Positions 3,020 to 21,000 of a stretch of 64,000 bases of DNA are shown here, piece after piece. The DNA is from Candidatus Thorarchaeota archaeon (GTDB lineage: Archaea; Asgardarchaeota; Thorarchaeia; Thorarchaeales; Thorarchaeaceae). Both the position numbers and the translations under genes were made by a program. The stretch covers positions 32,001-96,000 of the forward strand of contig JBHLRS010000006.1 in NCBI GenBank assembly GCA_048882325.1, read 5' to 3'. Under the pieces are notes generated by a model. It was not told the DNA's origin and made no database searches. It worked only from the letters and a program-made list of their open reading frames with translations. Numbering within the stretch: the first letter of the stretch is position 1; the number at the start of each line of letters is the position of its first letter.

Positions 3020-3730
3020 TCATTTCTTCCTTGATTTCAAATCCTCATCTATGCTTTTCAAGAGATCATCAACTAAAGCGCTAGGAAGATTCTTAGCTTG
3101 CTTCACAATATTATTCACTTCCTCCGGTGGGAGCCCTCTATTCTCAAGCTGTTTTCGAAGGTCCTCAATTTCAAAATCGGTAAGCTTGTCTTCAAACTCG
3201 GATTCCTGAATTGGTATCTCAAGTTTAGTATCATCGAGTGATTTTACAAATTCCTCTATCTTTTCCTTCGGGGCTGTTTCAGCCTCTTTCATGATTGCCT
3301 CAATTTCTATTTCTGGTACTTTCCGCCGAACCAACTCTGCTTCTAAATCAGCACACTCTTCTTCTGTTAAAGTCACAACTTTCTTTCTACGTTTCATTTT
3401 CTTCGGTTTTTCTGTTTTCTTGAAAAACTCAAGTGCAAGCTCCTTAGGAAGACTTCTTGCTTGTTCAACGATTGACTCGATTTCACGATCACTAGCTTTT
3501 CGCTTAATCAGCTCAGAACGAAGATTTTCAATTTCCTCTTCTGTGAGATGTTCAACCTTTTCTTCAACAGGTTTTGGTTTTTCTTTAGCCAGAATACTCT
3601 GAAGAAGCATCTGGACTACATCTTTTGGAAGTTCTCTGGCTTGTGTGACAAAGGACTCAATTTCATGCTCTGGAATTCCTCGTTTTTCAAGTTGTTCAGT
3701 CATTGTGTTCAATTCTAATTCTCTTAGCTG
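3020..3730 (-). repeat. Four ~45-aa cytoplasmic helical repeats, consensus L(T)xxEIExLRxxLxxRGxPxxEIExIVxQARxLPKxxxxxLLKS
   Basis: Four copies visible in the translation after the TM. One copy ends the 6202-aa paralog (LSDYELKEIRQQLVDAGIKGSELETIMEQARELPKELAEELLKSIL). Confidence 0.85.
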
Positions 3731-6700
3731 ATGTTCGATATCGAGTCCTTCTTCTTCTGGCTCAGAGATATCAGCATCTTCTTCAACTACAGCGTAAATG
3801 TCTGGTTTAGCTACTATAGCAGCTCCACCAATTCTCTTTCTCCTTTCTGCTACAACTTCTTCCATGACCTGTTCTACAGATTTGTTCTGTATACCTGCGA
3901 CTCTAATTGCTTCCTGACTAATTACCTCTCTTACGAAACTGGTTTGCTGACTCAACTTCATCTTTGATATCTCAAATTTGAAGTCATCAAGCTCTTGTTG
4001 AGTCATTTCAGTAAGTATAGCGAGGTCAATAATCAGTTCATCAATTTCAGGCACTTCTATTTTGACTGATTCTGCAGGAATTTGCGAAGCTTCTCTTTTA
4101 ATTCCAACTGGATCATGTAGTTCATTGAATAATTCTGCGACGAGGGATTGTCTTGATCGCACGCCCCTAGCTGGTTTAGGTACTCTACTTCTACGTAATT
4201 GTCTAACCTGACCACTAATTATCCTGATTATCTTTGGCACTCTTAGAATCCTTACCCATACAACACCGAATAGAATCAGGAAGATGGCAAAAGCACTACC
4301 GTAAGTCATTGCGTTCTGCAGAGCAAGATCTTCTTCAGATGGACTTACCGAAACTGAAATCATTACACTGGCTGTTTCATAGTATGTTTTATTGAAGTGA
4401 ATTGTTACTTCCGTGACACCAGCTCTTCTTTTAGCTAATACTCTAAACTGATAATATCCATCGCGACTTTCATCAGGACCTAGATATTCGACAGTGGCAA
4501 ATTGGGGTTCAGAGTTATCAACTATGATACGAGCCTCGGTAATTCCCTCTCCAGAATGACCTAGCCACGCATCGGAATAATAGATCCAAAATGTTGCGTT
4601 CATTCCCCAGTGAAGTGACAGTGCTGACGGTCCTTCCACCTGAAGACTAGTTTGAATCTTGATAATCGTGATCTCGAACACGAATACCGCGGTGGTGTGA
4701 TTTTCTAACATGAATTGGATGTTAAATAATATTGTCGCACCTAAGCCCCAATCAAGTGTGTTGAAAGCGAATGAATAATTACCATTTCCGTGATCGGACA
4801 AAATAAGTGGTTCTTCGTAGACTCTTGGTCCTGTATAGAACGAGTTGTTGGATATTGCGTCTGGAATCCCTCTTGCACCATAGGTGTCATTGTATAACAT
4901 GGTGACCGTAAGTGTATCTCCGTATGGTACTTGTAGTGTTGTCCAGGAATCTCCAATTCGATACAGTTCAGGGAGAAGAATCGAGATGTCCGTGGGGACT
5001 GATGCAATATGAATTCTAATCGTCAATTCTTCATCCTCATAGTTTGCCTTTCGGAACTCCACTGTGATCGTGTAAGTTCCCGGGTTTAGTTTTGATGTAT
5101 CAACTGGAATGCCATAGATTCCTTCACCAAGATATACAGCACTACCTGATCCTCCTGCCCAGGAAAAAGCGGAAAAGTCAGCCTGAATACCTTGTGCATG
5201 ATAACTATCATAGTAGGTGACATTGACAAAACCTGTCCCGCCCCAAACAAACTCATCAGTTCCTGGTGAAAGAATAGTTGCTTCTAGATTTCTCACATAT
5301 ATCGATGTAGAATTATCCGCCCTCTCGTAATCCTGATTGGGTGAATTGGCTGAGATGATGAATGTGTGAAGCGCGGCAATTCCTTGGCTTGTGTCGAAGT
5401 CATAGTAGTAATAACCAGGACCTCCAATTATGGGTCCATTCACTAATGTTCCATTTGTGCCGAGTTCAGGTGAGTTCCATGTAACATTCAGACCGTCTAA
5501 TCCTGTGGAGTACGGATGTGTTGCGTTAAGGGCTGGAGCTAGAACATAAACTCCAATTCTGACAATATCGGACCAGTACACAGATGTATATTCGTAGCTT
5601 AAAGTAGCATTATCGAGCCATACTACCATCTGTATCTTTGAAATTGCCATAATCAGAGTCGCGGATGCATTACCATAGTTGTATTTTGAAGCCCGTAGAC
5701 GAATCTGGTAACTTCCATATCCCGCATTTCCTGTAGGTATTTGAAGTCTGTAATGCCCCTGTTCACCTGATATCTCAGTCACTGTCAAATTGGTGTCATA
5801 CACCCAGCTTCCTACAAGGGTTGCCTCAGAAACATAAGTGCCGTCAAGGATGTCCTCTAGATAGACCTCAACCACAGCAGTAGCGCCATATGATACGGTG
5901 AAGACATAGCCTTCTTCAGGGATGATTTCCATTGGTCTTGGTAAAAGTCTGAAAACCAGCTGATAAGAAGCATCAATATAGTTTGGTGCACTACCTTCAA
6001 TTCTAACGATAATTGTGTCCGATATTACGCCCAAACTAGTATCGAGAATTGCTGTGTAGTTACCTGGCACACCAGTGGGTACAAATGAATCTATGTAGCC
6101 ATCCCAATCATATGTGATTGTCGCTATCGAAACAGTCTGATTTCTAAGTGTATCATTAATTGCTGCAAATATGGTGAGAGGCTCACCCCAGTATATATCG
6201 CTAGTGGCTCTTGGTCCACTCCAAGTGACAATCAGCTCGGATGGAACAGCAAGAAGGTTGATCTCTACATTCAGTGAAGAGATTGAATAGCGAAGCAGAT
6301 TTGCTTGCACAGATAAAATTTGAGAGCCATGACTCAAACTACCTGTCTGAAGAGTTAGATTATAACTACCATCTCCAAGATCAATGTATGACGACAAATC
6401 TCCCCATGTCAAGGTCAGTGAGGCTCCTGCAAGTGGGTTGTCGTCAGCATCATAATCAACGAGGTATATCATGGCTGATGTAGTATAGCCTGCATAGTTT
6501 GTAGGTGCAATAACTGCAGAGAGTCCTGCAACTCTCTTCCTTAATCCGAAAACTACAGATGTTTCTGCTATCTCGTATTGTGAGTGGTTGATTGTTACAA
6601 GTACAGATTGTAAACCAACAGTCAAGGAATCTACCATGCTCAATGTAATATTGTACTGTCCACTACCTAGTGCTAGAACTGACCAGGACGATGGTGCTAG

Positions 6701-9700
6701 TCCTGTTGATTCATAGATTAAAGAAATCTGCCCCTCTGCACCATTTATTGGCTGTCCATGATCCGTGTCCAAAAACTGAAGCACAAACGAAACGTCTTCA
6801 TAGAATGCTACAACTGAGGGTGATGGTAAGTCACTTGAAACAGATGTCTGAATTGCGCGAACTAATCCTTCTGCTTCTGGTGCAAAGGCAGTCATGTAGT
6901 ATGGAACTACTAAGGCGCTCCATTGAACTTCAATATCAAAACTGAAGGTTCCAAGGCTTCCTAATGAGGATGTGCTGACACGTATTGTATACTTCCCTGA
7001 ATCAACACCAGTTCCCATTTGGACCCAGTAATCCACTCCTTCAATGAGACCTGGAGCCTCAAAGCAATCAAAGACTATGATTGCACCTTCAATTGGATCC
7101 CCTGTCGACTGATCAGTGTACATCAGAGTGACGTTCATGAGATCCCCAAAAGGCGTTTCCTCAATTTGACCCAGCTCGATGTTTCCAAGTCTTCCTACTA
7201 TATCAACAAAGACTGAGGTCGCATCATCTTTGTAGTATGGAGCACCCGTAGTCCACTCAATCTGAATTGTTATGTTCCAATCGCTCACCAGGATTGCGCT
7301 TATGACAGTAGAATTGATTTTGAGTCTGAAAATCGAACCAATCTGCTGAATCACATACTCACCATATGCGAGAAGTGAAGTGTCACTGTATATCTTGACA
7401 TCACTAATAACAACTACAACACTTTCACCAGTTGATAAATCCACGAATGCAAAATCTAAGGTCATATTATCAAGGTACAATATTTGACCTGGTGGAAACA
7501 CTATCTCAACACTAGCAGATCTCTCAGTAACAGGGATATTGATATTTCGTTGAGCATCCTGGTAATGTGGAGGTCCTGCAGACCAATTGGCTACTACTGT
7601 TATTGTCTTTACTCCTGGAGGCCCGAGAGCAGATGTGTCCAATGAAAAAGCATAGAGACCGGGACTCGTTTCACTAATTTCATAGTCAACTGTGGGCTGA
7701 AGTAATGCTAATCCAAAATAGAGGTTAATTGTTCCACCAGTAATTCCTGATGATGATAGAATGTCCTTATACAGAATGGTGAAGTTTACGTAATCCTGAT
7801 AGTGCGTTTGAGAAGGTGACGAAATCAAGTCCAGACTTGTATCCCGTTCATGTATTTCGAATGGTACTAGTATCTCATTCCATTGGTAGAAGGGTGCTTC
7901 AAATTCGGAGCTGAAATTCAACCAAAGATGATAGGTTCGTCCTATCTCTATTACTTGATTAGAGGTTTCAACTGTGAGTAGGTAGTTCTGTTGTGATGGT
8001 CGCCAAGTACAAGTAAAGATCCAGTTGGATCCATTGAGTATCTCTAAGCTGGTCATGACACCTGTATCGTTTCCTATCGCAAAAAGGGAATCAAGGTCCT
8101 GGTAGTACAGAACTACACTGAATGAGCTTCCATATGGGATGGATCCAACAGGCTCAGATGTCAATAGAGTGTCTCGAAAACTGACCTCAAGGGTTTTTGT
8201 AGCACTTCTGGCTTGATAGTAGAACTGAACAGACGAAGCTTCCACTCTAAGTGAATAAAGTCCTGGCTTACCAAAGTATGATACATTCAGATTAACTAAG
8301 TATTCTCCAGACCCTAGATCTGTAATCTGAACATGACTAGAGGGAACAACTGTCACCCCGAAATATATGTCAATCGTGGCTCCTATTACCATCTTGGAGG
8401 CTGAACCTGCAATATCTACAAATGTCACAGTGAAGGTTGCATTATTACCAAATGGAGTTAGAGGGGGTGTAGGATATGTCAGAAGGGTTTGACGTTCTAT
8501 CAGTGTTATATCTATGATTCGTCCAGTGACGTTTGAATAGAATGGCAATCCACTCCAGGTAAGATTTAGGAATAGTTGTCTATCTCCTAGTGGGGCACCA
8601 AGCTGACTCGTGTTGAATGAAACTATGTATAATTCCTCAAGAGCATTGTAACTCAATGTGAAATCAGGCACATCTAGTAACACCGTCATGGCAGCTGGAT
8701 TATAGTCTATAGGACTTGAGAGTCCTCCCGTTGTATCTTCATAGGTGAAGGAGAATGTAGCATTCTCACCGTAGGGTACACTGGTTGGTGGTATGATTGA
8801 TAGTGATGCAGTCCTTGGAAGTACTCTCACTGAAATCAAGTCAGTCCTGTTTGTATAGAATGGAACCACATTGGCAGACCAGTTGATGAGTACCTTCATT
8901 GAAAAGATACCCGTTCCACTAATAATCGAATTGTTGAATCCGATTGAGTATTCCCCTTTCCTATTGACGCTGTCTATTTCCCAGATGTCCACTTGTGACA
9001 GATCCACAGTGACACCAACAAACTCAACACTAATGAAAACGTTGAATGTGTCGTTCGTGATGCCGCCTGTAGATGGGCTTGAATATAGGAAAGTGTAGGT
9101 CATGTAGTCTAGGCATGGAGAAGGAAGAGCTGCTTCAATCAGTGTGAGTTCTGTATCTGCACCAACTATTTCAACTGTAATGGATAGGAACCTGTTCTCA
9201 TACTTTTGGATGCTTCCAGTCCAATTGAAGTAGACTGTGAGTTGTTGAACTCCAATACCTCCAAACTGCAAGGCAACAATTGAAATGGTATAGTATCCAT
9301 CTCCTCTTGCCGTGTCATTATCCCAGGTAGTTGCTAATTGGTGGGTTGCATTCCAGACAGTACACTGAACATCAGAAGATACAATTCCCTGCAAGTGATC
9401 CCGATCCCCGTAATAAACTGAGATATTGATTGTTCCATCTGAAGTTGTGTCATCTACTGGTGAGAGCAGCCTGAGCTCGGTCCTAATGGAGCGAATCACA
9501 ACAGTGACATTGAATGATGCTGATTCATATTCTGCTCCGAATGAAAAATCAAAGACAAGCAGGTACAACGCTAAAGCATCGGTATCAAAGGTGTTGATGG
9601 TGACACTGTAACGGTTGCCCACCCACACAATGTCATAATGAACTGGAGTCCAGTTACAGCTATGACTCACTGTTAAGATTGGTAGGTCATGGTCCATGTC

Positions 9701-12700
9701 AATATAATCCACATAGAATGTCTGTGTGTCTCCTACTGGGATTTCTAGAGCTCCGACAGTAGCAGTTGCATATGTTCTGATTTGTCTGACCTGAATGTCT
9801 ATCGATATTATCTTGTCTTCATAGTTTGGTGCTGAAGCGGTGAAGCTCACAGTATAGACACCAATGCCCCATGTGTCGGTTTCAATCGTCACTCGATACC
9901 TGCCACTGGTTATCAGTTCTTGACCAAGCTTCGCAGCCCCAATCACGGTGAAAGTAGCTGTGTCAATTCCCTGTCCTCTATCTATATCAACAAACTCTAA
10001 GGTAACAACTGCATTCGTGCTGTAAGATATCGTCAAAAGTGGAAAGTCGGGTGAGCTTAAATCACAACGTGCTTGAGTGAACTGAAAACTAATGATGGGC
10101 GTCTGAACGTTGGAGTAGTTCTCTGAAACTCCAAATGAAATGAATATCCGTATTCCATATGTTCCTCCTGGGAAGTAGGACTGGTCTAAAGTTATGACAT
10201 ATGTCCCTGCACTTTGAGGTGAAAACGTCTTGATGTTATAGAGTGTACCATTCTTGTCCCTGACAGTGAAATGGCTCTGAAGAAGACCATTTACAGGCAT
10301 GTTATCAAAAGCTGAACTTGACTCATTCACAGTCACATAAGTGATTATCTCAAAATCATCCCCGACTGGGAAGACACCTATATTATCCCACAAAATCATT
10401 GTAGTCAATTTTTTGATGTTCAGAAGTATCGCAGTGGTTCCATCATAGTAATACCTAGGAGTTGTGGTTGTGAAAACTGTGAGGTCAATTGTATAGGTGC
10501 CTAATTCCCAATCCTGGGTTTCAATAAGGAATTGAAGAGATCCGTAACTTGCAGAACCTCCGGTCCATTCTGCGAGAACACTTGATAGGTTTCCGGTTAT
10601 TGCTGTATTTCCTGCATCAAGATCTAGCAACGATAGAGTAACTGTGACATTGGATCCCAAAGGTATAGTTCCATCATAACTGGCCACAACGGTAGTTCTA
10701 TGTGGTCTTATCGCCACTGCAACGGTAACCTCGCCCGCTTTATAGTTCGTGCCAGCTATTGTGAAATTGAACAAATAGATGTCAATACTGTACGAGTCAA
10801 CATCAATTTCGATGGAGTACCTCCCATCGAGTAAGTCTGTATACTGGAATATTCCATCACTACTCAACACACCTCCAGTTATTCCGATACTGCTATGATC
10901 AACATCTTGCCACTCAAGTATAATGGTTGCATTCTCACCCCAAGGTGTACTAACTGGATTGACCTCAACCTGAACCAAATCAGTCTCGATTTTTCTGTAT
11001 TGAACGTTCGCCTCCACAGAGCTATCGATTACGTACATTTGCGAAGGATTTGCATTTATGACAAAACAATGTGTTCCAAAATTCAATCCTGTTGAATCAA
11101 TGTTAACGATATACGTGCCATTGTTATAATCTGTGACACCATTTATTGTACCATTAGAGGTTATGGTGGCTCCTGCATAATATACTCCCGTTATTGCATC
11201 TTGGAGATTCACCCGGATAAGGAAGTCGTCTCCATATGGTGCTGAAGGTGGTGTTTCATAAGTCAACACCGTATTGTGAGATAGCTGCAAATCAAAGAAT
11301 GTTGCTGCATCAACGAGGAGTGGGTGGCTAGAAACAATGTCGAGTCTCCAATTTCCTGGCTGACCTAGATCCGAGGTGTTGAGAGTCTTTCCATAAATGC
11401 CGTTGCCATAATCTTCGAACTGGATTTGTGTCTCGATTCCCAAGACACTCCAGTTCATCATAACCGTGGAACCAACTACATTTTGTGCAGTTTCAATATC
11501 GGTCAGTTGAACCTCGACCTCTAGAAGTTCTCCTGCTGTCCGTACTGAAATTCCATCTCCAATTGCGTCATCTGGTGACAAGAGGTCAAGAGATGAAGCA
11601 TGTTCTACAATGAATAGTCTACTGTATCTTCCAACACGTTCTGGACTCAAGTCCGCCGTGTCGTTGAAGTCGACATGAACCTCCCAAAATCCATTTGGCC
11701 AAGAACCAGTCACGCTGATGCCTGTCCATTCGAACTGACCACTTCCATCTTGGCTCAAGTCATCTGAGCTGTAAAAGACCTGACCGCTTGGGTCTATCAA
11801 TTGAAGTTGCATGGCCGACCCAGGAATCACTGTTGCTGTCCCCCTAAACTTTGCAAGGTCTCCTGTCTGAAGTGTTACAGTATTTCCGTACGCACCAGCA
11901 TTTGCTCCACACTCTAGAAATGACGCCTCATTGTTTGAAGTGAATGTAAATGACCAAACACCTGGGACATCGAGGACTGACGATGGCACAGTGATCTGCA
12001 CACCTGTTGTTGAGATATCCAAGAGTCTGTTCCGGCCCATTGCATCAATGACCTTTGTCAGCGTCCAATCAACCGGATTCGTCAAAATCATCCTCAAATC
12101 ACTAACACCTTGTGGTGGACTCGCTAGGACATTTGCTGTCCATGTTACTCCCGTTCCGTTAGCCACAAAGAATGATGTTCCAGATACCATGTTCTCATCC
12201 AATGTTGAGCTCTGAGTTGTCACATTGAGTTTCATTCTTGGAAGGATACCCACAACCGATGAGGCATCTGTAGTGAAGGACAAAGTAGCGCTTTGTCCAT
12301 ATAGTACACTCTGTTCAGAACCAACACTTAGGAAGCTAGATGGGTCGTACTGGTTTTCATATTCAGTTTGAATCCAGCTAGCAGATTTGTAGCCCATCAT
12401 TGTGCGAAACTCGTCTATTCCTCCAAGGTGAACTTGCCCGCCTCCATATGAACCTAGCATGAAAATATTCGAAGCGTCTCTCAACCTATCTCCCAACCCT
12501 ATGCTTGAATCTGACTTGGAATCCTGCAGTACACCATCTGCAAAACTATAGGCTCGTAATGTTCCATCACCAGTACTTTCATACTTGTACACAACAAAGT
12601 TCCAAGTCTGACGTTTCACCAAGACATTGAGGTAGGTGGCGCCTCCAATATCAAAATGGATATCAGGTTGGAACGAAGCATAGTCGTCTGGCCAGCCCGT

Positions 12701-15013
12701 TGGATTCCTGAAAGTCCTTACCAGAGTTATAGATGTGCCCTTCTGGAAGAGCACGGGTTCTACACTTGTCCATTCAGCGTCACTTGAGTAATTAAAGTAG
12801 ACCCAAAACGAAAACTGGAAGTCTGACCAACCGTCGAAAATACTTTCGCTATCTATGAAGGGGATATAATTGCCAACCGCATCTTGGAAGTATCTAGCAT
12901 CTCCAATTTTCGCGTTCCGCATAAAGGATGTTTGAGTAGGTGTACCATCGTGGTTATTCTGGCTTGAATCTTCTAAGAACGAGCCATTGCCGGACTGTTC
13001 TGCGAGATGCCAAACGCTGTTATAGTCTTCCCAAATCCGATTCGGATTCTCTAGCATGGCTGCATTTGGAGCTCCATAAGCCATGGTGACTATTGTGTCA
13101 ATGGAAGCAGACAATAGAGGAACTTTCACCCAAGCCACAAGATGGGCATGAGTTGAATTATAATTAGAGTCAAAGAGTTCTATTTCGTGATCTAATGTTT
13201 CTGAACCAAGCATGAACTTGATATCCTCCCCATCTGGTTGAGTATCAGTCTTGAGATCGCTGTCATATATGTCAACCAGAACCGGGAAGTCCTTCAGGTC
13301 TGAGCTCACCTTTGTGTGGTCTATTGTCAAGTCTTTCCTATGATTAAGGATGGAAATAATATCATCTTCCTGAGGGACTAAGAAGTCCACGTAGAGCGTA
13401 GCCAAGTCGTCGCCGCCATAACCAAAAGTCCCCCTAATGGAGTTCCAGTCACGGTACTGGTCCGAGTTCATGTAGTCAATCATGATGCAGATATAGTTTC
13501 CACTATCCCACCCGGGACGGGATACTACACTTTGCACAAGCGAAGACATGTCAGGTGTTCTATATCTGAAATAATTCTCCCAAGAATCCTGTATCCAAGC
13601 TACACTTGTGCTGCTCCAGCTATACCTTTCTTCTAGATTTGGTAAACCGTTTGTGAACGGTGAAACATTGTCTTCCTCAGCTACAAATACCCGAAGCGAA
13701 TTGTTACCTCCACCAAAATAACCTAGCGCTTCCACCTCGAGAGATGCTGAGGTGATTATTGCACCTTGTGGAATATCTACTGGGAACTGGATGCCAATCT
13801 GATACTTGACAACATCATTCCATGATGTACCACTGGAACTCCAAACTCCCACTTCCAGCGCACTAGAAGTGCTAATTCCTGTATCAGATCTACTGAAACA
13901 GTCTCTTGCTGCGCCATCTGGAACATAGGTCGAAAAACTGCCTGATGTGGAGCTAGCTATTAAGGTCTGATTAGCACTGAGCCCAATCTGCTCTGGAAGA
14001 GGTCTGGCTTCGAAAATCACCTCAATCTCATCAATGAACAATCTATTGTTGATGTTTGAGGGTGCGTTTCCTGAGTAATCTGTACCAAGACCAATTGCAA
14101 GTGAAGTTGTACCCGGAATTGGCATATTATCAAAAACAGATGCAGGAATTTTAGCTTCACCTACAATCCACTGGTCTGTCACATATCCACTACTGAAGAC
14201 ATTGAATTTTGCCCGGAACCCACCAACATCTACAAATAAATAGAATATATCATTCATTACCTGTGCACTTGGGACAGAATGATAGAATCTAATCTCGCAA
14301 GAATACACGTCTCTCCAAGGCAACTGTAGGCTTTGGCTTAGATACAACTCCATATCAGTATTAATTGGTGTTCCTAAAGAGATTAGAACGCTAGGCCTCC
14401 ATCCCATGGAACTTTCTCTACCGCTCCCTGCTGAACTGTACCAGTACAGACTTCCATGTGTTGGATGAGTTGTAGAATCACCATTTTTCGATATTGACCA
14501 ATCATCTGGAACATTGAAAACCTCTGAGTTCCATGGTGAACCAGATAATATATGTCGTTCCTCATGATAATCATCGAGAAGACCATTCTTCACTGGTTTG
14601 ATCACTGTGGAAAGATACTCTAAGGACCCGCTCATGTCAGTACCAGTCCAACCTAACGGTGCCTGAATAGAAACCGGTGTGGGTGCTGATGAATCGAGCA
14701 TTACAATGCTTTGCGAATCATTGGAAAACAGGCCCTCATACGTAACTGGTTGAGCCGCTCCTGATGAGCTGTATGATTGTGATCCTTCTGTAGTCCAGAA
14801 CTGATTCGGTATGTTCTCGCTGGAGAATCCTCCACTAATCAAGTCAGCCTGATTTGGGTTGAGGCCTACAGGGGAGCAGAAAATCAAGAGAAAGATGCAC
14901 GGAATAATAATTCTGAAACTAGTGCGTTTGTACTCTTTAATTAAGGTCCTATAGCTTGATGAGATACTTAATCGAGATTTCTTGTGATAACCGGAGGATT
15001 CGATTAAACTCAT
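3020..15013 (-). CDS. Giant type-I membrane surface glycoprotein (3997 aa): DNRLRE-like domain, 1x DUF2341+LamG module, long Ig-like stalk, C-terminal TM, cytoplasmic tail with 4 helical repeats
   Basis: Hydrophobic N-terminal signal (RIIIPCIFLLIFCSP). IPQGAIITSASLEV. HRKDLTIDHTKV..FPVLVD..DGEDIKF..HEIE..WVKVP and VWHL..IDEFR..WIQTEYENQ. Many ~100-110 aa beta-rich repeats with GxY and N-x-S/T sequons. TM YGSAFAIFLILFGVVWV. Confidence 0.9.
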   Translation of the reverse strand: MSLIESSGYHKKSRLSISSSYRTLIKEYKRTSFRIIIPCIFLLIFCSPVGLNPNQADLISGGFSSENIPNQFWTTEGSQSYSSSGAAQPVTYEGLFSNDSQSIVMLDSSAPTPVSIQAPLGWTGTDMSGSLEYLSTVIKPVKNGLLDDYHEERHILSGSPWNSEVFNVPDDWSISKNGDSTTHPTHGSLYWYSSAGSGRESSMGWRPSVLISLGTPINTDMELYLSQSLQLPWRDVYSCEIRFYHSVPSAQVMNDIFYLFVDVGGFRAKFNVFSSGYVTDQWIVGEAKIPASVFDNMPIPGTTSLAIGLGTDYSGNAPSNINNRLFIDEIEVIFEARPLPEQIGLSANQTLIASSTSGSFSTYVPDGAARDCFSRSDTGISTSSALEVGVWSSSGTSWNDVVKYQIGIQFPVDIPQGAIITSASLEVEALGYFGGGNNSLRVFVAEEDNVSPFTNGLPNLEERYSWSSTSVAWIQDSWENYFRYRTPDMSSLVQSVVSRPGWDSGNYICIMIDYMNSDQYRDWNSIRGTFGYGGDDLATLYVDFLVPQEDDIISILNHRKDLTIDHTKVSSDLKDFPVLVDIYDSDLKTDTQPDGEDIKFMLGSETLDHEIELFDSNYNSTHAHLVAWVKVPLLSASIDTIVTMAYGAPNAAMLENPNRIWEDYNSVWHLAEQSGNGSFLEDSSQNNHDGTPTQTSFMRNAKIGDARYFQDAVGNYIPFIDSESIFDGWSDFQFSFWVYFNYSSDAEWTSVEPVLFQKGTSITLVRTFRNPTGWPDDYASFQPDIHFDIGGATYLNVLVKRQTWNFVVYKYESTGDGTLRAYSFADGVLQDSKSDSSIGLGDRLRDASNIFMLGSYGGGQVHLGGIDEFRTMMGYKSASWIQTEYENQYDPSSFLSVGSEQSVLYGQSATLSFTTDASSVVGILPRMKLNVTTQSSTLDENMVSGTSFFVANGTGVTWTANVLASPPQGVSDLRMILTNPVDWTLTKVIDAMGRNRLLDISTTGVQITVPSSVLDVPGVWSFTFTSNNEASFLECGANAGAYGNTVTLQTGDLAKFRGTATVIPGSAMQLQLIDPSGQVFYSSDDLSQDGSGQFEWTGISVTGSWPNGFWEVHVDFNDTADLSPERVGRYSRLFIVEHASSLDLLSPDDAIGDGISVRTAGELLEVEVQLTDIETAQNVVGSTVMMNWSVLGIETQIQFEDYGNGIYGKTLNTSDLGQPGNWRLDIVSSHPLLVDAATFFDLQLSHNTVLTYETPPSAPYGDDFLIRVNLQDAITGVYYAGATITSNGTINGVTDYNNGTYIVNIDSTGLNFGTHCFVINANPSQMYVIDSSVEANVQYRKIETDLVQVEVNPVSTPWGENATIILEWQDVDHSSIGITGGVLSSDGIFQYTDLLDGRYSIEIDVDSYSIDIYLFNFTIAGTNYKAGEVTVAVAIRPHRTTVVASYDGTIPLGSNVTVTLSLLDLDAGNTAITGNLSSVLAEWTGGSASYGSLQFLIETQDWELGTYTIDLTVFTTTTPRYYYDGTTAILLNIKKLTTMILWDNIGVFPVGDDFEIITYVTVNESSSAFDNMPVNGLLQSHFTVRDKNGTLYNIKTFSPQSAGTYVITLDQSYFPGGTYGIRIFISFGVSENYSNVQTPIISFQFTQARCDLSSPDFPLLTISYSTNAVVTLEFVDIDRGQGIDTATFTVIGAAKLGQELITSGRYRVTIETDTWGIGVYTVSFTASAPNYEDKIISIDIQVRQIRTYATATVGALEIPVGDTQTFYVDYIDMDHDLPILTVSHSCNWTPVHYDIVWVGNRYSVTINTFDTDALALYLLVFDFSFGAEYESASFNVTVVIRSIRTELRLLSPVDDTTSDGTINISVYYGDRDHLQGIVSSDVQCTVWNATHQLATTWDNDTARGDGYYTISIVALQFGGIGVQQLTVYFNWTGSIQKYENRFLSITVEIVGADTELTLIEAALPSPCLDYMTYTFLYSSPSTGGITNDTFNVFISVEFVGVTVDLSQVDIWEIDSVNRKGEYSIGFNNSIISGTGIFSMKVLINWSANVVPFYTNRTDLISVRVLPRTASLSIIPPTSVPYGENATFSFTYEDTTGGLSSPIDYNPAAMTVLLDVPDFTLSYNALEELYIVSFNTSQLGAPLGDRQLFLNLTWSGLPFYSNVTGRIIDITLIERQTLLTYPTPPLTPFGNNATFTVTFVDIAGSASKMVIGATIDIYFGVTVVPSSHVQITDLGSGEYLVNLNVSYFGKPGLYSLRVEASSVQFYYQARSATKTLEVSFRDTLLTSEPVGSIPYGSSFSVVLYYQDLDSLFAIGNDTGVMTSLEILNGSNWIFTCTWRPSQQNYLLTVETSNQVIEIGRTYHLWLNFSSEFEAPFYQWNEILVPFEIHERDTSLDLISSPSQTHYQDYVNFTILYKDILSSSGITGGTINLYFGLALLQPTVDYEISETSPGLYAFSLDTSALGPPGVKTITVVANWSAGPPHYQDAQRNINIPVTERSASVEIVFPPGQILYLDNMTLDFAFVDLSTGESVVVVISDVKIYSDTSLLAYGEYVIQQIGSIFRLKINSTVISAILVSDWNITIQIEWTTGAPYYKDDATSVFVDIVGRLGNIELGQIEETPFGDLMNVTLMYTDQSTGDPIEGAIIVFDCFEAPGLIEGVDYWVQMGTGVDSGKYTIRVSTSSLGSLGTFSFDIEVQWSALVVPYYMTAFAPEAEGLVRAIQTSVSSDLPSPSVVAFYEDVSFVLQFLDTDHGQPINGAEGQISLIYESTGLAPSSWSVLALGSGQYNITLSMVDSLTVGLQSVLVTINHSQYEIAETSVVFGLRKRVAGLSAVIAPTNYAGYTTSAMIYLVDYDADDNPLAGASLTLTWGDLSSYIDLGDGSYNLTLQTGSLSHGSQILSVQANLLRYSISSLNVEINLLAVPSELIVTWSGPRATSDIYWGEPLTIFAAINDTLRNQTVSIATITYDWDGYIDSFVPTGVPGNYTAILDTSLGVISDTIIVRIEGSAPNYIDASYQLVFRLLPRPMEIIPEEGYVFTVSYGATAVVEVYLEDILDGTYVSEATLVGSWVYDTNLTVTEISGEQGHYRLQIPTGNAGYGSYQIRLRASKYNYGNASATLIMAISKIQMVVWLDNATLSYEYTSVYWSDIVRIGVYVLAPALNATHPYSTGLDGLNVTWNSPELGTNGTLVNGPIIGGPGYYYYDFDTSQGIAALHTFIISANSPNQDYERADNSTSIYVRNLEATILSPGTDEFVWGGTGFVNVTYYDSYHAQGIQADFSAFSWAGGSGSAVYLGEGIYGIPVDTSKLNPGTYTITVEFRKANYEDEELTIRIHIASVPTDISILLPELYRIGDSWTTLQVPYGDTLTVTMLYNDTYGARGIPDAISNNSFYTGPRVYEEPLILSDHGNGNYSFAFNTLDWGLGATILFNIQFMLENHTTAVFVFEITIIKIQTSLQVEGPSALSLHWGMNATFWIYYSDAWLGHSGEGITEARIIVDNSEPQFATVEYLGPDESRDGYYQFRVLAKRRAGVTEVTIHFNKTYYETASVMISVSVSPSEEDLALQNAMTYGSAFAIFLILFGVVWVRILRVPKIIRIISGQVRQLRRSRVPKPARGVRSRQSLVAELFNELHDPVGIKREASQIPAESVKIEVPEIDELIIDLAILTEMTQQELDDFKFEISKMKLSQQTSFVREVISQEAIRVAGIQNKSVEQVMEEVVAERRKRIGGAAIVAKPDIYAVVEEDADISEPEEEGLDIEHQLRELELNTMTEQLEKRGIPEHEIESFVTQARELPKDVVQMLLQSILAKEKPKPVEEKVEHLTEEEIENLRSELIKRKASDREIESIVEQARSLPKELALEFFKKTEKPKKMKRRKKVVTLTEEECADLEAELVRRKVPEIEIEAIMKEAETAPKEKIEEFVKSLDDTKLEIPIQESEFEDKLTDFEIEDLRKQLENRGLPPEEVNNIVKQAKNLPSALVDDLLKSIDEDLKSRKK

Positions 15014-18000
15014 TTGTCTCCACCTCCTTCTCCTAAGATGCTCTTCAGAAGTTCTTCAGCAAGTTCCTTTGGCAGTTCTCTGGCCTGCTCCATGATTGTT
15101 TCAAGTTCACTTCCCTTAATACCCGCATCCACTAATTGCTGACGTATCTCTTTTAGTTCGTAATCACTAAGCATGTCTTCTGAAACGACTTCTTCGAACT
15201 CTATAGGTTCTAGAAGACTTTCTTCTTTTTCATCAACAATCTTTAGTTCGGCCTTCTCCATAACAAGTTCTGGTCGAAAGACTTCTTCAATATCTTCTCC
15301 TGCAAGAATAGCACGTGCCTTTGCTGCAGTCTCTGCTAGAATCAACTCCATCGGTTTTCTTTCTATCCGTCCTTGTTTGATGGCTTCCTGGTTGATTACC
15401 TCCTTGACAAAAGCAACTTGCTCACTCAATTTCATCTTTGAAACATCAAGTCTGAAGTCTTCAAGTTCATCATCAGTCAAATTCGACAGGATTGATAATT
15501 GAACAAGCAACTCTTCTATTTCAGGAACCTCAGAAGGAATCGCTTCACTTGGAATAGATGAAGCTGTCTTTGTAATTCCAATAGGTCCAGCAATATCATT
15601 GAAGAGATTTGCAACAATCTCCTGTCTAGTGGGAACATTATCTGGTATTTCAGGAATCTTTCCTTTACTGATGGTCTTTACCATCTTTCTTATCTCTCGT
15701 AACCGCTTTGGTATACTGAAAAGCCGAGTCCATAAGACAGCTCCAACCAACAACACGAATCCGATAGGTGCGCCATATATGATTACTCGTTCTATAAGTA
15801 TGTCAAATTCTGACGGTTCCACAGAAATTGCTATGGACACACCAGCAGACTCAAAGTTGTCTTTTGACAGAATAATCGAAACAATTGTTGAGCCTTGGGT
15901 TCTTCGAGATCGTACTCTGATTTCATACCAACCTGGTCTGGAAGAATCAGATTGGTTCAGTGACACAATCACATATCCAGTGTCGAGAGGTGTTGCGTTT
16001 ATTGACCCTCCAGCTATACCCTCACCTGCATGACCAACCCATGCGTCATAATAGAATACCCAGATCGTGTACTCTTTTCCATAGCTCATGGTCAAAGAAG
16101 AAGATCCGTCAACTTGGAGACCTGTTGGAACATTGATGATGGTGATCTGTACTTCTACTGTGGCCCGACTCCAGTTTCCAAGATAGAAGTTTAGAATAAC
16201 CCTATATGGGCTATCACTTACAATCCAACGGCTCGTATCAAACAGTAGGCTGTAGTTTCCATCAGAAATTTCCTCAATCAGGATATAATCCCGTTCAGGA
16301 ATCTCAAGACCAATAACAACCCCGGTGATCTCAGTTGCACCAGGGATGCCTCTATTATACCATGTGTCATTATAGAACAGAACAACTGGAAGTACATCGC
16401 CATAGGGAACTTCCAAGATTAGAGCATCCTCGTCAAGCTGATTCAAGGTTGGTGCAAACACGCGGATAGCTGTAGGAACCTCCTTGACATTGAGTGTAAA
16501 GACCCCTGTTCCTATCTTGTAGTTGTCCAGTATGAAGCGGACAGAAACCGGATAAATTCCTGGTGTTACCAATGATGCATTGATAAACACTTGATAGGTT
16601 CCATTACCAACATACCTGAATGTATTTTCAAGACCATTCCAATCTACGATAACATCTGCACCAGCAATTCCTCTGTCAAATAGGAGGTCCCAGTAGGTGA
16701 GATTAACCCAACCTGTCCAACCCCATATCTTAGGACTTAGGTACGTTGATTCAACTGATGTTTCGATTGGTTCGATGATTAGTGTAGTAAAATTGCTGGA
16801 ATAAGCAAACATACCAATGTTTGGGTGTGCTGTGATTCTTAGAGTGTATGTTGATGCAGAATAGTCGAAGGTATTGAAATCGAAGTAGAAATACCCTGGA
16901 CCTCCAATCAATGATCCATTCAGGAATTCACCAGTAAAAATTGTTCCTGACAGAGACCACTGCACAGTGCAGTTTGCTAAGCCAGTTGATAATGGATAGG
17001 ATACATTCAATGATGGCGCAAGGACATATACTCCAACTCGAATTATGTCTGACCAATTGAAGGTACGAGTACTATATGTCGAGGTTAAAGCATCAAGCAT
17101 GACAACGGTTGATATCTGTTTGATTTTTACACTTACAGACGTAGTTGCTGTAACGTAGTTTGTTCTATCAGCTCTTACTGTAAGAACATATTCTTGAACA
17201 AACAGGTCATTAGTGTCAACAAACCCAGTATAGTATCCATCCAATCCCGGAACTGGGGAAAGAGTAATGCTCTGTTCACCTTGAGCAACCCAAGTCACTT
17301 CGACAGTCGCTCCCAGCAGGGGAGTATTAGTATAGGTATTATTGACATATACAGTGATATTCACAGGAGTGCCTTTGAAAACTTCTGGTTGGGTGTTACT
17401 AACAACAGTCAACTCAAGTGAAAGTTTCAATACATTCACAGTAAGTTGACCAGTTATTGTTTCATAGTTATTGAGCGTGGCTGTAATTGATACAACATAG
17501 GTTGTGGCTACAGCGAGATTTCCGGAATCAATCGTAATGGTGTAATTCCCCGGATCTGTTACCACTTCGGTAAGACTGCCACTCAGAACTCCAAACTGAT
17601 ACTCAAGATTTGCACCAGATATCAGGATGTTATCTCGAGTATCATTAAAGATGGCCCAGATAGAAACATCTTCACCCCAGTAGACATCGGGGATAGTCTG
17701 AGGTAGAATAAGCTCTGTGGAAATGCTTAGGATTTGAACTGGTACTGAAACATCTGAGATGAAATAGTCACTCTTCTGTGCACCAACAACCAGTGTGTAG
17801 AGGCCTGAATCAAGACTAGTTGTAGTCAGAGTAATATTGTATAAGCCTGGTCCAATTGACACGTAATCTGGTGTGTATCCGATGTCTGGCCATGTTAATG
17901 TCAGAACGGCACCATCAATCGGTGCATAACCTGCATCAATGTCAACGAGCTCAACAATAACATATGTTGTTTCGCCATAGTATGTGGCTGGAGCTACAAT

Positions 18001-21000
18001 TTCATTCAATTCTCCTTGTCGGAGTCGGATTTGAAATGGAACTTGAATCTCAACAGTTTGATAGTCCATGAATGATAGTGTTATTGTGAGTGCATTAGTC
18101 CCCGTTACGCCAGCATCAGAGCAATCCACAACCAATTCGTATACCCCTGGTGAAATTGGGATTATGCTCCAGGTTGAGGGTCCAGATGTGTTAGTCTTGT
18201 AGGTTACCGAGAATGACCCCTCGGCTCCAATGATTGGACTAGAATGATCCAGATCTTGAAGATTCAACACAACGGAAACATTGTCATGTATTGGTACAGT
18301 AGATGGATTTGGTTCTTCATTCGTGAGTTGTGTTTGAATTAAGCGAACAGTTCCTTGGAGATACAACATTGTCGTGTTTCTATAAAATGGCTCTAGGGTG
18401 GGGTTCCATAGTAAACGAAGGGAGAAAGTGAATGTTCCTGTGCTGCCAAGACTTGTAGTATCAACAAGTATCGAATAATTGCCATTATTTTGGAATACCC
18501 AGAAATCAACACCCTCGATTAAGCCACTTGGGCTAAGACAGTCGAATAAGACAATTGCATTATTGATACCTGCGCCAGTCGAATCATCAACATATCTAAA
18601 TTCGAGTGTCATATTGTCATGTATTGGAACAGTCGGCGATGACTCGCGAATTACAATCCCAACTCTGTTGACCACATTTACCCATGTGGATACCCGCCCA
18701 TCTGCATAGTACGGTGCAACGTTATCCTGCCACTCTATATAGAATGTAATGTTCCAACTGCTGATTAATCCAATTTTCAATATTGACGAGTTGATAGAAA
18801 CTTCATAACCAGGGCTTCGATACATCATCGAGAAATCGTTGCCCTGCAACGGAGTTCCTTCGCTATATATCAGCAACTGATCCTTGTTGAACAGTATTTC
18901 CTGTCCAGTTGAATCATCACTATATCTAATTGTGAAGGTGACATTCTCAAGGTACCTGACTAATGTTGTAGAAGTCAATATTTCTGTAATTGAGTTTCTC
19001 TTTGTGACACTCAGAGTGAGGCTTAGCACAGATGTTGAGTAGTATGGCGGGGCTGATATCCATGACGCAGTTAACTGAAGATTAACATTTGTCCCCGCTG
19101 GTCCTATCGATGTTGTATTGAGCGAAATCGAATAACGACCAATTGCTGGACTTTGTAGTAGGTAATCCACTCCTTCAACTAAGTCCGACCCACCAATTGT
19201 CAAAGTGATAGTGGCGCCAGCGATTCCACTCAAGGATAGCGTGTCCTGGTAGTAAACAGTAAAGTTGATCTTCTCAAGATACTGTGTTGGTTCTGGTGAT
19301 GATGTAAGTTCCAGATTTGTAGTTCGCTCTCGTAAGGTAAATGAAATAAACGCTTCAGAGGACAGATAGAACGGTGCCGCGTCTGGATAGCTGAGTTCAA
19401 TCCAAAGAACATATTCTTTGTTTATCTCAAGAATTTGATTGTATGTCTGAACTGTGAGAAGATAATCTTCTGAAGCACCACGCCAAACTGAGCTGAAGAT
19501 CCATGAACTTCCATTAAGGATCTTGATTGTTGTTGGTGTTGAAGTGTTACCAATATCCGCTAGAGTCAACACATCACTATAGTGGAATACTATTTCTAGG
19601 GAGTTATTGTATGGTGTTTCTGCAACAGGCTCTACTAGAACAACAGTTAGTCTGTATTGTAGACTGAGTGTTCGTGTTGCAGCGACCAGTGCATAGTAGA
19701 AATGGCTTGTACTCATTTCTATCGTAATTGCATAAGTTCCCGGATTTGAGAAGTAGGTTGTCTTAAGCTCTATTTCATAATCTCCGTTTCCGAGTGGTGA
19801 GAATGAATATTCAGATACAGGAATTTCCTGTACGCCATTATAAAGGGTGACTAAACCATCGTCGATTGTTTGTGATGCTCCTTCTGTGACATCAGTGAAA
19901 GAAACATGTAGTGTCACATTGTCGCCATAGGGTGCTGGACTAATTGCTGAGTAATCAAACTCTGTTTCACGGAACCTAACACTAATGATGACATTTCTCC
20001 CCGTCACATTAGTATAGAATGGTGACCCTGTCCAAACAACACCTATACTAAATTGTCTAGCTCCGAGAGGAGCTCCTAGAATACTTGTGTTGAAGGAAAC
20101 ATGGAACTGTCTTATGGATTCGTTATAGGTGATGGTATAATCTGGCAGACCAATAGTTATCGTCATCTGACTACTGTTTGCTACACTGTAAGCGATGCCT
20201 TCTGCTACGTCATCGAATGAAAATGCGAAGGTTGCGTTGACACCATATGGAGTACTCTCTGGAGGTATTAAATTGACCACAGTGCTTCTTGGAATGATCC
20301 GCACCGAAACAGTATCTGTCCAGTTACCATAGCCTGGATCAACTCCTTTCGACCAGTTCACGTACACAATCATGGTGTATATTCCAGGTTTTCCAAACAT
20401 CGTGCTGTTGAACATGATTGAATAATAACCTGGATTTCCGCTATCCTCAGTAATTGTATATAGAGAGGGATTGAAAGAATAGCCAACAAAATTAACATAG
20501 ATATGCACATTTCCTGCAGGTGCAGACACATTTGAAATTCCAATCCCACTGTAAAGTTCACTGTAAACATATGTATAGGTTAAGTTACCTAGGTACGGCG
20601 TAGGTTCTGCAGAATCAAACAACTCAAGATTTGAAGCCTCCCCTATTATTCTTATGGAAGCAAAAAGGGACCCATTGAGGTATTTCTGGACAGGTCCTGT
20701 CCAGTTGAAGTAGACCGTGAGATCGAAGATGCCAGAACTTCCCAAATTAGTTGCTGCGAATCGAATTATGTAATATCCATCTCCTAAGACTGTATCATTT
20801 TCATAAGTTGCTGGAATCAACCCCGAATCACCGTATACAGACAGAGCGATTGGAGCCTCTGCAATTCCAACATCATTGTCAAGGTCACCACAATAGACGG
20901 ATATATTGACCATGGCATTGTAGCTTGTAGGTTCGATAGCACTAGCAAGCCTGAACTCAGTTAAATGAGTCCTGACAATGATGCTTAGATTGAAGTAACC

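What the first reader, a model, noticed from the sequence alone, without database searches (positions are those of the whole stretch)
3020..4250. Conserved, unrecognised cytoplasmic domain and helical repeat on the giant proteins
Seen: after the TM both paralogs share PK.+R.I..V, RQ.+VA.LFN and EVPEI+EL+++L.IL..+T..EL+DF+.++SKMKLS.Q..FV+EVI.QEA. This is visibly more conserved than much of the ectodomain. It is followed by a ~45-aa repeat (4 copies here; 1 at about 15030-15175). Inference: a protein-interaction module, with L..RG+P..EI loosely recalling UBA/RecX/Pex14N-type small helical bundles. It is a candidate docking site for cytoskeleton, the neighbouring LRR/GTPase-like proteins or ESCRT adaptors. 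Simple S-layer anchors do not need a tail of about 400 aa.
Basis: partly seen in the sequence, partly recalled or inferred. Interest (0 to 1): 0.7.

Follow-up and report, generated by a model that had tools for sequence, protein, structure and literature searches.

The report
Conserved inner tail of Thorarchaeal giants
Two giant surface proteins of a Thorarchaeota (Asgard) archaeon end inside the cell in a conserved, unannotated tail (membrane-hugging basic helix, new helical domain, acidic leash, one or four small three-helix bundles) that looks like a docking platform, but its partner is still unknown.

Summary
Two giant genes with overlapping stop and start codons (3997 aa at 3020-15013; 6202 aa at 15010-33618; minus strand) encode type I membrane proteins. 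Both have the same cytoplasmic tail:
- a TM helix
- an amphipathic polybasic helix with KGK-P and SRQ motifs
- a helical juxtamembrane (JM) domain of about 140 aa
- a disordered acidic leash
- a 47-aa three-helix module, four copies in A and one in B.

An exhaustive search found only 117 cluster representatives among 1.84 billion proteins. The module always ends 2-8 residues before the C-terminus, in one copy or four. Strong full-tail matches were found only in the window's own family (Thorarchaeota) and one sister-family genome. The TM-plus-basic motif occurs in many other Asgard families.

A small single-copy membrane protein found in every well-assembled genome of the family searched carries a homologous JM domain without any ectodomain.

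No Pfam, NCBIfam, PDB-sequence or fold match is significant.

Positive-inside charge, sequon depletion and composition place the tail in the cytoplasm.

My reading is a docking or anchoring platform (about 0.5). No partner was identified.

The scan has already reported orthologous tails in two other genomes.

The parts
3020..15013 (-). Giant gene A (3997 aa): signal-like N-terminus, S/T/N/G/Y-rich ectodomain with one weak DUF2341 match, one C-terminal TM helix and a 407-aa cytoplasmic tail
4244..4312 (-). TM helix of A (residues 130-152 of P0002)
   Evidence: Hydropathy maximum. AF2 helix 2-28 of the tail model, pLDDT above 90.
4085..4243 (-). Juxtamembrane motif shared across Asgard families: Pro kink, amphipathic polybasic helix (PK..R...), (K/R)G(K/R).P turn, SRQ..V..LFN helix
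   Evidence: Mean hydrophobic moment 0.62 against 0.32 in shuffles. P and R (P-x-x-x-R) are invariant across four Asgard families. Found in 187 of 301 genomes of the phylum at E <= 1e-6.
3818..4084 (-). Helical core of the JM domain, including the EVPEI...KMKLS.Q..FV.EVI.QEA block. Shared by the window's family, its sister family and one further Asgard family (f12).
   Evidence: Alignment A3, invariant L76 M97 S100 F105 V109 Q112 E113. AF2 model pLDDT 88.4, pTM 0.59. No significant fold or sequence match. f12 tails match model positions 4-170.
3731..3817 (-). Acidic, disordered leash between the JM domain and the first module
   Evidence: pLDDT below 50 for tail residues 174-196. Net charge of the whole tail is -21.
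3590..3730 (-). Three-helix module, copy 1 (P0005:3762-3808)
   Evidence: local HMM, E 1e-18; AF2 helices 203-247
3410..3550 (-). Three-helix module, copy 2 (P0005:3822-3868)
3233..3373 (-). Three-helix module, copy 3 (P0005:3881-3927), the most diverged copy
3047..3187 (-). Three-helix module, copy 4 (P0005:3943-3989). This terminal copy is the closest to the family consensus and ends 8 residues before the stop codon.
   Evidence: E 5e-22, the best of the four copies
15010..33618 (-). Giant gene B (6202 aa), paralogue of A. Its stop codon overlaps the start of A (ATGA), with GGAGGTG 8 nt upstream.
15292..15786 (-). TM helix (15718-15786) and JM domain (15292-15717) of B
15034..15174 (-). Single terminal three-helix module of B (P0001:343-389)
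   Evidence: E 6e-19
33767..34390 (-). Cytoplasmic LRR protein (207 aa, no signal peptide or TM), co-oriented about 150 nt upstream of B. Its position is conserved across genera. Binding to the tail is not shown.

Best explanation
The stretch encodes the intracellular tail of a giant type I surface protein. The tail is a previously unannotated module set that marks a family of Thorarchaeal giant surface proteins.

Shown:
- The order of parts is TM helix, proline kink, amphipathic polybasic helix with (K/R)G(K/R).P and SRQ motifs, a compact helical JM domain of about 90 further residues, a disordered acidic leash, then a net-acidic 47-aa three-helix bundle.
- That bundle always closes the protein. 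It is present once, or four times in one clade.

Inferred mechanism:
- The basic amphipathic helix lies on the inner membrane leaflet and fixes the JM domain there.
- The acidic leash is repelled from the membrane and holds the terminal bundle(s) out into the cytoplasm as a handle for a soluble, probably basic, partner. Four copies would raise valency.
- The tail would thus couple the giant ectodomain to an intracellular partner or scaffold.
- The JM domain is an autonomous unit that sits next to the membrane. A small, single-copy membrane protein found in every genome of the family of at least 85% completeness searched consists of little more than a TM helix plus a homologous JM domain. It is a candidate co-subunit or competitor.
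For: Topology:
- K/R count is 10 after the TM and 0 before it. Both N-termini are signal-like.
- Sequons across the family: 2.31 per 100 aa in ectodomains, 0.32 in tails.
- Lysine is 1.4% outside and 10% inside. The tail of A has no W and one Y; the tail of B is similar.

Fold:
- The AF2 tail model has mean pLDDT 87. It shows four separate three-helix units and a disordered leash.
- The JM-only model has pLDDT 88.4 and pTM 0.59.
- The basic helix is amphipathic, with hydrophobic moment 0.62 against 0.32 in shuffles.

Selection on the tail:
- Only 117 representatives were found in 1.84e9 proteins, on ectodomains of roughly 2000-6500 aa.
- The module ends 2-8 aa from the C-terminus in about 105 representatives. 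Only one-copy and four-copy forms were seen among full-length tails.
- Tail lengths fall into three tight classes of about 212, 268 and 432 aa.
- The four-module tails form one clade, SH-aLRT 99.
- The terminal copy is the best conserved.

Autonomy of the JM domain:
- The 174-aa protein P0131 aligns to the tail with hhalign probability 97.2, E 4e-11, over 83 columns.
- It was found in 57 of 57 family genomes of at least 85% completeness, and in 73 of 81 family genomes sampled without a completeness filter, always as a small ORF.

Co-expression: B and A overlap by ATGA. The genome holds three tandem pairs of tail-bearing giants.

The modules are net negative: mean -4.4, and 96% of them are negative.
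Against: - No partner is known. Nothing here shows binding of anything to the tail.
- Conserved polar positions in the module (E6, E23) are explained by helix N-capping boxes. Module conservation may therefore be largely structural rather than a binding surface.
- In this genome the module occurs only in the six giants, with no free-standing copies, so a homotypic adaptor network is unlikely.
- Only this gene pair has the conserved LRR and pseudo-GTPase neighbours. Gene context therefore names no general partner.
- Fold searches give only noise-level matches, so no function can be borrowed from a known structure.
Confidence: 0.5

Rival explanations
1. Anchor and biogenesis device. The TM helix with the conserved basic motif is a stop-transfer and topogenic signal and an in-plane membrane foot. 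It keeps a multi-thousand-residue ectodomain in the bilayer, or is read by insertion or sorting machinery. The remainder of the tail is ballast or a spacer with no specific ligand.
For: - The only part shared across many Asgard families is the TM helix plus the polybasic P-x-x-x-R...(K/R)G(K/R).P...R motif.
- That helix is amphipathic.
- Loki-like homologues have tails of only about 60-80 aa after the TM helix.
- Conserved polar residues in the module look structural.
Against: - A simple anchor does not explain a folded JM domain with 11 invariant positions.
- It does not explain the strict terminal placement and high conservation of the module (57% mean column identity).
- It does not explain fixed tail-length classes.
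- It does not explain an ectodomain-less protein that keeps the JM domain in every family genome of at least 85% completeness searched.
Confidence: 0.25
2. Lateral organiser. JM domains associate with each other under the membrane (A with B, or giants with the small JM-domain protein). This sets the stoichiometry and spacing of the surface coat from the inside.
For: - Tail-bearing giants come as tandem pairs, three pairs in this genome, and the same pairs recur in other genomes.
- B and A overlap by ATGA.
- Each giant has its own orthologous tail lineage.
- A small membrane protein found in 57 of 57 well-assembled family genomes carries a homologous JM domain.
- Death-fold domains, which are homotypic assemblers, recur among the noise-level structural matches: 8 of the top 50, Z 4.0-5.3.
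Against: - No JM-JM complex was tested.
- The structural matches are at noise level for helical bundles.
- Pairing could be mediated entirely by the ectodomains.
- This idea does not explain the leash and the terminal module.
Confidence: 0.15
3. Nucleic-acid tether. The three-helix modules are HTH, SAP or RecX-like DNA- or RNA-binding units that hold nucleic acid at the membrane.
For: Sub-threshold Pfam hits to RecX_HTH1 and RecX_HTH2 (57 and 29 of 131 modules) and to SAP (4 of 131). The L..L..+G.P..EI pattern resembles helix-turn-helix motifs.
Against: - 96% of modules are net negative, mean charge -4.4, and they sit on an acidic leash.
- No hit reaches a Pfam gathering score.
- The same motif matches designed helical repeat proteins and the uS15 N-terminus equally well, so it is a generic helix-cap pattern.
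Confidence: 0.03

Closest known systems
Eukaryotic single-pass adhesion receptors with adaptor-binding cytoplasmic tails (integrin beta and cadherin juxtamembrane regions). Named from general knowledge, not tested here.
   Same: Type I topology, a huge modular ectodomain, a conserved membrane-proximal basic region, and a distal tail element presented on a flexible segment.
   Different: No sequence or fold similarity was found. No adaptor is known. The helical JM domain and the terminal three-helix bundle have no counterpart in those tails.
Small three-helix-bundle interaction modules on flexible linkers (paramyxovirus phosphoprotein X domain, staphylococcal protein A and streptococcal GA modules)
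   Same: Size of about 45-55 aa, up-down-up three helices, tethered by a disordered linker. These are the best structural neighbours of module 4: Z 4.7-5.4, rmsd 2.4-2.7 over 47-55 aa.
   Different: The Z values are at noise level for helical bundles. Sequence identity is 7-22%. The context is unrelated.
RecX three-helix repeats (PF21982, PF02631) and the Pex14 N-terminal domain (PF04695)
   Same: A shared pattern of helix, (K/R)-G, x-P/S-x-x-E-I, helix. 57, 29 and 15 of 131 modules give weak matches to these families respectively.
   Different: All matches are below the gathering scores (best E 1e-4). The modules are acidic, membrane-tethered and always C-terminal. There is no link to a RecA or peroxin context.
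Prokaryotic C-terminal sorting signals (PGF-CTERM with archaeosortase, LPXTG, MYXO-CTERM)
   Same: A C-terminal TM helix followed by a basic cluster on large surface proteins, conserved across a lineage.
   Different: Those signals end a few residues after the TM helix and carry their signature motif before it. Here 240-407 folded residues follow the TM helix, and the conserved motif lies on the cytoplasmic side.

Membership tests
RecX three-helix repeat (PF21982 RecX_HTH1, PF02631 RecX_HTH2) | Sequence match at or above the Pfam gathering score | tested here: not met
   57 and 29 of 131 modules match only at E between 1e-4 and 1. The whole tails gave no RecX hit at all.
SAP / HeH motif (PF02037) | Match to the SAP profile and a basic, nucleic-acid-binding character | tested here: not met
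   4 of 131 modules match weakly, best E 0.007. Module net charge averages -4.4 and 96% are negative.
Pex14 N-terminal domain (PF04695) | Sequence match at or above the Pfam gathering score | tested here: not met
   15 of 131 modules match, best E 3.6e-4, below the cut-off.
UBA-like three-helix domains | Profile match, or a structural match well above background | tested here: inconclusive
   UBA is not among the 25 Pfam families hit by most modules. No UBA domain as such is named among the VIA rows; one row (HIV-1 Vpr with hHR23A, 6xqi_A, Z 4.0) may include one. Small helical folds are easily missed.
Death-fold (DD/CARD) six-helix bundle | Structural match of the whole domain well above the background for helical bundles | tested here: inconclusive
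   Eight death-fold chains appear in the top 50 for JM residues 64-144, at Z 4.0-5.3 only. The tool's own guide puts Z below 8-13 at background for helical bundles.
Archaeosortase-type C-terminal sorting signal (PGF-CTERM and relatives) | Signature motif, TM helix and a short basic cluster forming the extreme C-terminus | tested here: not met
   239-407 residues follow the TM helix. NCBIfam, which holds models for such sorting signals, gave no hit.
The new tail family itself (TM helix + JM domain + terminal module) | JM domain with invariant P, R, P, R, L, M, S, F, V, Q, E positions directly after a TM helix, and a 47-aa module ending 2-8 aa before the C-terminus | tested here: met
   Both A and B meet all of these features.

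The most novel reading that the evidence does not exclude
The Asgard-wide juxtamembrane motif, the Thorarchaeal JM domain, the small JM-domain membrane protein found throughout the family and the leash-borne terminal bundles together form a receptor-type transmembrane linkage. In this reading giant adhesin-like surface proteins are physically coupled to an intracellular system (cytoskeleton, small-GTPase/LRR module or ESCRT). That would be a prokaryotic forerunner of eukaryotic adhesion-receptor tails, allowing outside-in or inside-out communication.
Probability: 0.15. Interest if true: 0.85.

Novelty: new variant of a known kind. Interest (0 to 1): 0.6.

Why it matters
Asgard archaea are the closest known relatives of eukaryotes. 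How their elaborate cell surface connects to their eukaryote-like cytoplasmic machinery is an open question.

This tail is a defined, conserved and unannotated handle on the cytoplasmic side of the largest surface proteins of one Asgard class. Part of it is shared across many Asgard families.

It offers small, expressible baits: a 47-aa module, a 144-aa JM domain and a 174-aa tail-only protein. With these the question becomes directly testable. It also supplies three new domain definitions for annotating thousands of proteins now labelled hypothetical.

Tried and rejected
- Pfam and NCBIfam on both tails, on single modules, on non-Thorarchaeal tails and on the small protein gave nothing at threshold.
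- PDB sequence-profile searches with the module and the JM domain returned only designed repeats, the uS15 N-terminus and polycystin-2 fragments at weak E-values.
- Foldseek against the PDB gave no match at E <= 0.001 for the whole tail or for the JM domain.
- VIA wide search gave a best Z of 5.8 and 5.7, which is background for helical bundles.
- ESM Atlas by shape gave TM scores of 0.30 or less. By features it gave no usable hit.
- Co-folding of the cytoplasmic tail of A with the upstream LRR protein, each as an alignment, scored 0.00. The tool returned no verdict, so this counts neither for nor against binding.
- I asked whether the LRR and pseudo-GTPase genes accompany all tail-bearing giants. 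The other two pairs in this genome are cut by contig ends. In another genome of the genus a C19-type pair has DUF2334, histone and ThiI genes upstream. A C16-type giant has only a weak LRR-like gene about 5 kb away.
- A cis-prenyltransferase fragment fused to two modules (P0120) lies on a 1147-bp metagenome scaffold. I set it aside as a possible chimera.
- I considered villin-headpiece likeness (LS..F...G...LP...) from memory. VHP is not among the 25 Pfam families hit by the most modules and is not in the VIA lists. It remains untested as a fold.
- Five literature searches found no description of these tails.
Full report
WHAT IS THERE

The window comes from an Asgard archaeon. Its neighbours include EAP30/Vps36, Vps25, Vps4 with a MIT domain, two Ras/Roc-like proteins and an LRR protein. 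A family member in NCBI is labelled 'Candidatus Thorarchaeota archaeon'. Earlier notes of this scan also place the genome in Thorarchaeia.

Two giant ORFs lie head to tail on the minus strand:
- B, 15010-33618, 6202 aa.
- A, 3020-15013, 3997 aa.

The stop codon of B and the start codon of A overlap as ATGA. GGAGGTG lies 8 nt upstream, which suggests translational coupling.

Both proteins begin with a signal-like hydrophobic stretch. Each has one further strongly hydrophobic helix near the C-terminus. The finding covers everything after that helix in A.

CHECK OF THE OBSERVATION

- The quoted motifs are present in both tails. The tails align at 39% identity over 373 aa, E 1e-90.
- The repeat is real. 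Five ungapped copies were found, four in A and one in B, each with a 47-aa core, spaced about 60 aa apart in A. The coordinates given for B (about 15030-15175) are right: the module spans 15034-15174.
- The claim that the tail is more conserved than the ectodomain is only partly right. Between A and B the 144-aa JM domain is 41.7% identical, against an ectodomain mean of 38.4%. The 52-aa core is 60% identical, in the top 1.3% of ectodomain windows.
- Against the orthologue P0006 the JM domain is 69% identical against 57% overall. The core is 81%.

TOPOLOGY

- Ten K/R residues lie in the 30 residues after the TM helix of A, and none in the 20 before it. B is similar.
- The ectodomains are rich in S, T, N, G, Y and W and contain 1.4% lysine. 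They carry 1.4-1.9 N-x-S/T sequons per 100 aa.
- The tails are rich in E, K and R (8-10% lysine) and almost free of W and Y. They carry 0.25-0.4 sequons per 100 aa.
- Across the family the sequon figures are 2.31 outside and 0.32 in the tails.

ANATOMY AND PREDICTED STRUCTURE

An alignment of 84 tails (A1) gave an AF2 model with mean pLDDT 87. Its elements, in tail numbering, are:
- TM helix, 2-28.
- A break at V-P-K, then a helix at 32-45.
- A loop carrying (K/R)G(K/R).P.
- Helices at 59-70, 95-106, 110-120, 125-147 and 151-166.
- A disordered stretch, 174-196.
- Four separate three-helix units.

The low pTM of 0.37 fits beads on a string. The JM domain folded alone gave pLDDT 88.4 and pTM 0.59.

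The first cytoplasmic helix is amphipathic and basic. Its mean hydrophobic moment is 0.62, against 0.32 for shuffles. The first 36 JM residues carry about +7 net charge, and the rest of the JM domain about -10. The modules are acidic: mean charge -4.4, 96% negative.

The module consensus is close to RLSEEELEELRKELEKKGVPEEEIDTIIEQAKELPRALVEELLKSLG. Its two most conserved glutamates sit in S/T/P-x-x-E positions. I read these as helix N-capping boxes, which is inference.

The JM block LT..ELD.F...I.KMK.SEQ may be a degenerate relative of the first helix of the module. The support is hhalign probability 59% over 22 columns, so this is suggestive only.

DISTRIBUTION

An exhaustive phmmer search of 1.84 billion cluster representatives found 117 proteins. 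Nearly all match at their extreme C-terminus. Many are fragments of very large proteins.

A local HMM of the module shows three things:
- The module ends 2-8 residues before the C-terminus in about 105 representatives.
- It is present once in about 90 representatives and four times in nine (A included). Two copies were seen only in two fragments and in the suspect fusion P0120, and three copies never.
- In four-copy tails the last copy is the closest to the consensus.

Tail length from TM helix to end falls into three tight classes of about 212, 268 and 432 aa. On a JM-domain tree the four-module tails form one clade (SH-aLRT 99). B-type tails form another (SH-aLRT 90).

The window's own genome (3.6 Mb, 93% complete) has six tail-bearing giants in three tandem pairs. 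It has no free-standing module.

In a sample of 301 genomes of the phylum:
- Strong full-tail matches occur only in the window's family (74 of 76 genomes) and in one sister-family genome.
- Family f12 has large proteins that match the TM helix plus the whole JM domain.
- Odin-like (f3) and Loki-like (f9) genomes match only the TM helix plus the basic motif.
- One Odin-like tail also ends in a module-like hairpin (E 3.7e-7 in a small local search).

A profile of the TM-plus-basic motif (A5) has invariant P-x-x-x-R. It matches 187 of 301 genomes at E <= 1e-6.
- Beyond the four families used to build it, it hits f7 (5 of 5), f21 (3 of 3), f24 (6 of 7) and f15 (3 of 4).
- It found nothing in f5 (0 of 28), f22 (0 of 21) or f14 (0 of 11).

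A TAIL-ONLY RELATIVE

The weakest own-genome match led to a 174-aa protein, P0131, at G000:C36:7403-7924. It has an N-terminal TM helix followed by KGK...P.V.SRQ.II..F and more helices.

- Its family alignment (A6, 27 sequences from all genera sampled) matches the giant-tail alignment with hhalign probability 97.2%, E 4e-11, over 83 columns. The match covers the basic helix through the first core helices.
- Full-length copies (E < 1e-37), almost always one per genome, were found in 55 of the 57 family genomes of at least 85% completeness; the other two gave only weak cross-hits.
- It was also found in 73 of 81 family genomes sampled without a completeness filter.
- Outside the family, one sister-family genome has a weak small-ORF match (198-aa frame, E 1.8e-9). 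All other outside hits are cross-hits on the JM motif of large surface proteins.
- Its neighbours are housekeeping genes.

The JM domain is therefore an autonomous cytoplasmic unit that sits next to the membrane.

COMPARISON WITH KNOWN FAMILIES

No Pfam or NCBIfam model reaches threshold on the tails, the modules, the non-Thorarchaeal tails or P0131.

Scanned one by one, the modules give weak matches to:
- RecX_HTH1: 57 of 131, best E 1e-4.
- RecX_HTH2: 29 of 131.
- Pex14_N: 15 of 131.
- SAP: 4 of 131.

The same pattern also matches designed helical repeats and the uS15 N-terminus. I read it as a generic helix-turn-helix capping pattern.

Foldseek, VIA and Atlas searches give nothing above background for either model. 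The neighbours of module 4 are generic three-helix bundles: the paramyxovirus P X domain, protein A, the GA module and KIX, at Z 4.7-5.4. Death-fold domains recur among the JM neighbours at Z 4.0-5.3. That is a lead, not a match.

GENE CONTEXT

The cytoplasmic LRR gene lies directly upstream of B, with the divergent pseudo-GTPase gene(s) beyond it. This arrangement recurs in other genomes of the genus and in a second genus. LRR orthologues were found in 22 of 81 family genomes, in four genera, often on the same contig as a B-type giant.

The pseudo-GTPase pair is unique in this genome. The other pair types show no such neighbours where the upstream region could be read. Context therefore ties the LRR and GTPase genes to this operon, not to the tail family as a whole.

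INTERPRETATION

Best reading (about 0.5): a cytoplasmic docking and anchoring platform.
- Shown: the topology, the order of parts, the predicted folds, the conservation rules and the lineage distribution.
- Inferred: the basic helix lies in the membrane plane; the acidic leash projects the acidic bundle(s) into the cytoplasm; the bundles bind a partner; four copies add valency.

Rivals:
- A pure anchor or biogenesis signal with a passive tail (0.25).
- A JM-JM lateral organiser that includes the small protein (0.15).
- A nucleic-acid tether (0.03), which the acidic charge contradicts.

NOVELTY AND PRIOR SIGHTINGS

I found no paper that describes these tails. Public records call the proteins hypothetical.

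The scan has already reported orthologous four-module tails in two other genomes, with the same structural reading and no partner.

New in this report:
- The terminal-position rule and the one-or-four copy rule.
- The three tail classes and their clades.
- The tandem, translationally coupled gene pairs.
- The spread of the juxtamembrane motif through Asgard families.
- The tail-only JM-domain protein found throughout the family.

Noticed in passing
G000:C36:7403-7924 (locus L011:1441-1965, protein P0131); outside the window: A 174-aa protein with an N-terminal TM helix and a domain homologous to the giants' JM domain (hhalign probability 97.2%). It was found in 57 of 57 family genomes of at least 85% completeness, nearly always as a single full-length copy. 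It has no Pfam family.
   Followed up: yes
window 15010-15013 and 15014-15030 (minus strand): The stop codon of giant gene B overlaps the start codon of giant gene A (ATGA). A Shine-Dalgarno-like GGAGGTG lies 8 nt upstream, encoded by the GGG run at the end of B.
   Followed up: yes
window 33767-37260: The LRR gene lies upstream of B and co-oriented with it, with one or two divergent Ras-like genes beyond. This arrangement is conserved in at least two genera. In one genome of the second genus a second giant pair follows directly after the GTPase gene (G248:C8).
   Followed up: partly
P0120, locus L038 (1147-bp metagenome scaffold): The N-terminal half of a cis-prenyltransferase (UppS-like) is fused to two copies of the three-helix module. 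The contig is too short to tell a real fusion from an assembly chimera.
   Followed up: partly
G109:C84:41607-51659 and G222:C109:8437-17680 (Loki-like family f9): Tandem arrays of three or four genes with open frames of about 540-1350 aa, most of them 1100-1350 aa. Each protein ends in a TM helix plus the same basic juxtamembrane motif and a short tail.
   Followed up: partly
window 1644-2984 (+): A 446-aa N6/N4 DNA methyltransferase-like gene (PF01555, E 3e-16) converges on the 3' end of giant gene A. Only 35 nt separate the two stop codons.
   Followed up: no
G000 contigs C19 and C16: The upstream member of each of the other two giant pairs is cut by a contig end. Giant repetitive genes appear to break this assembly.
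   Followed up: partly
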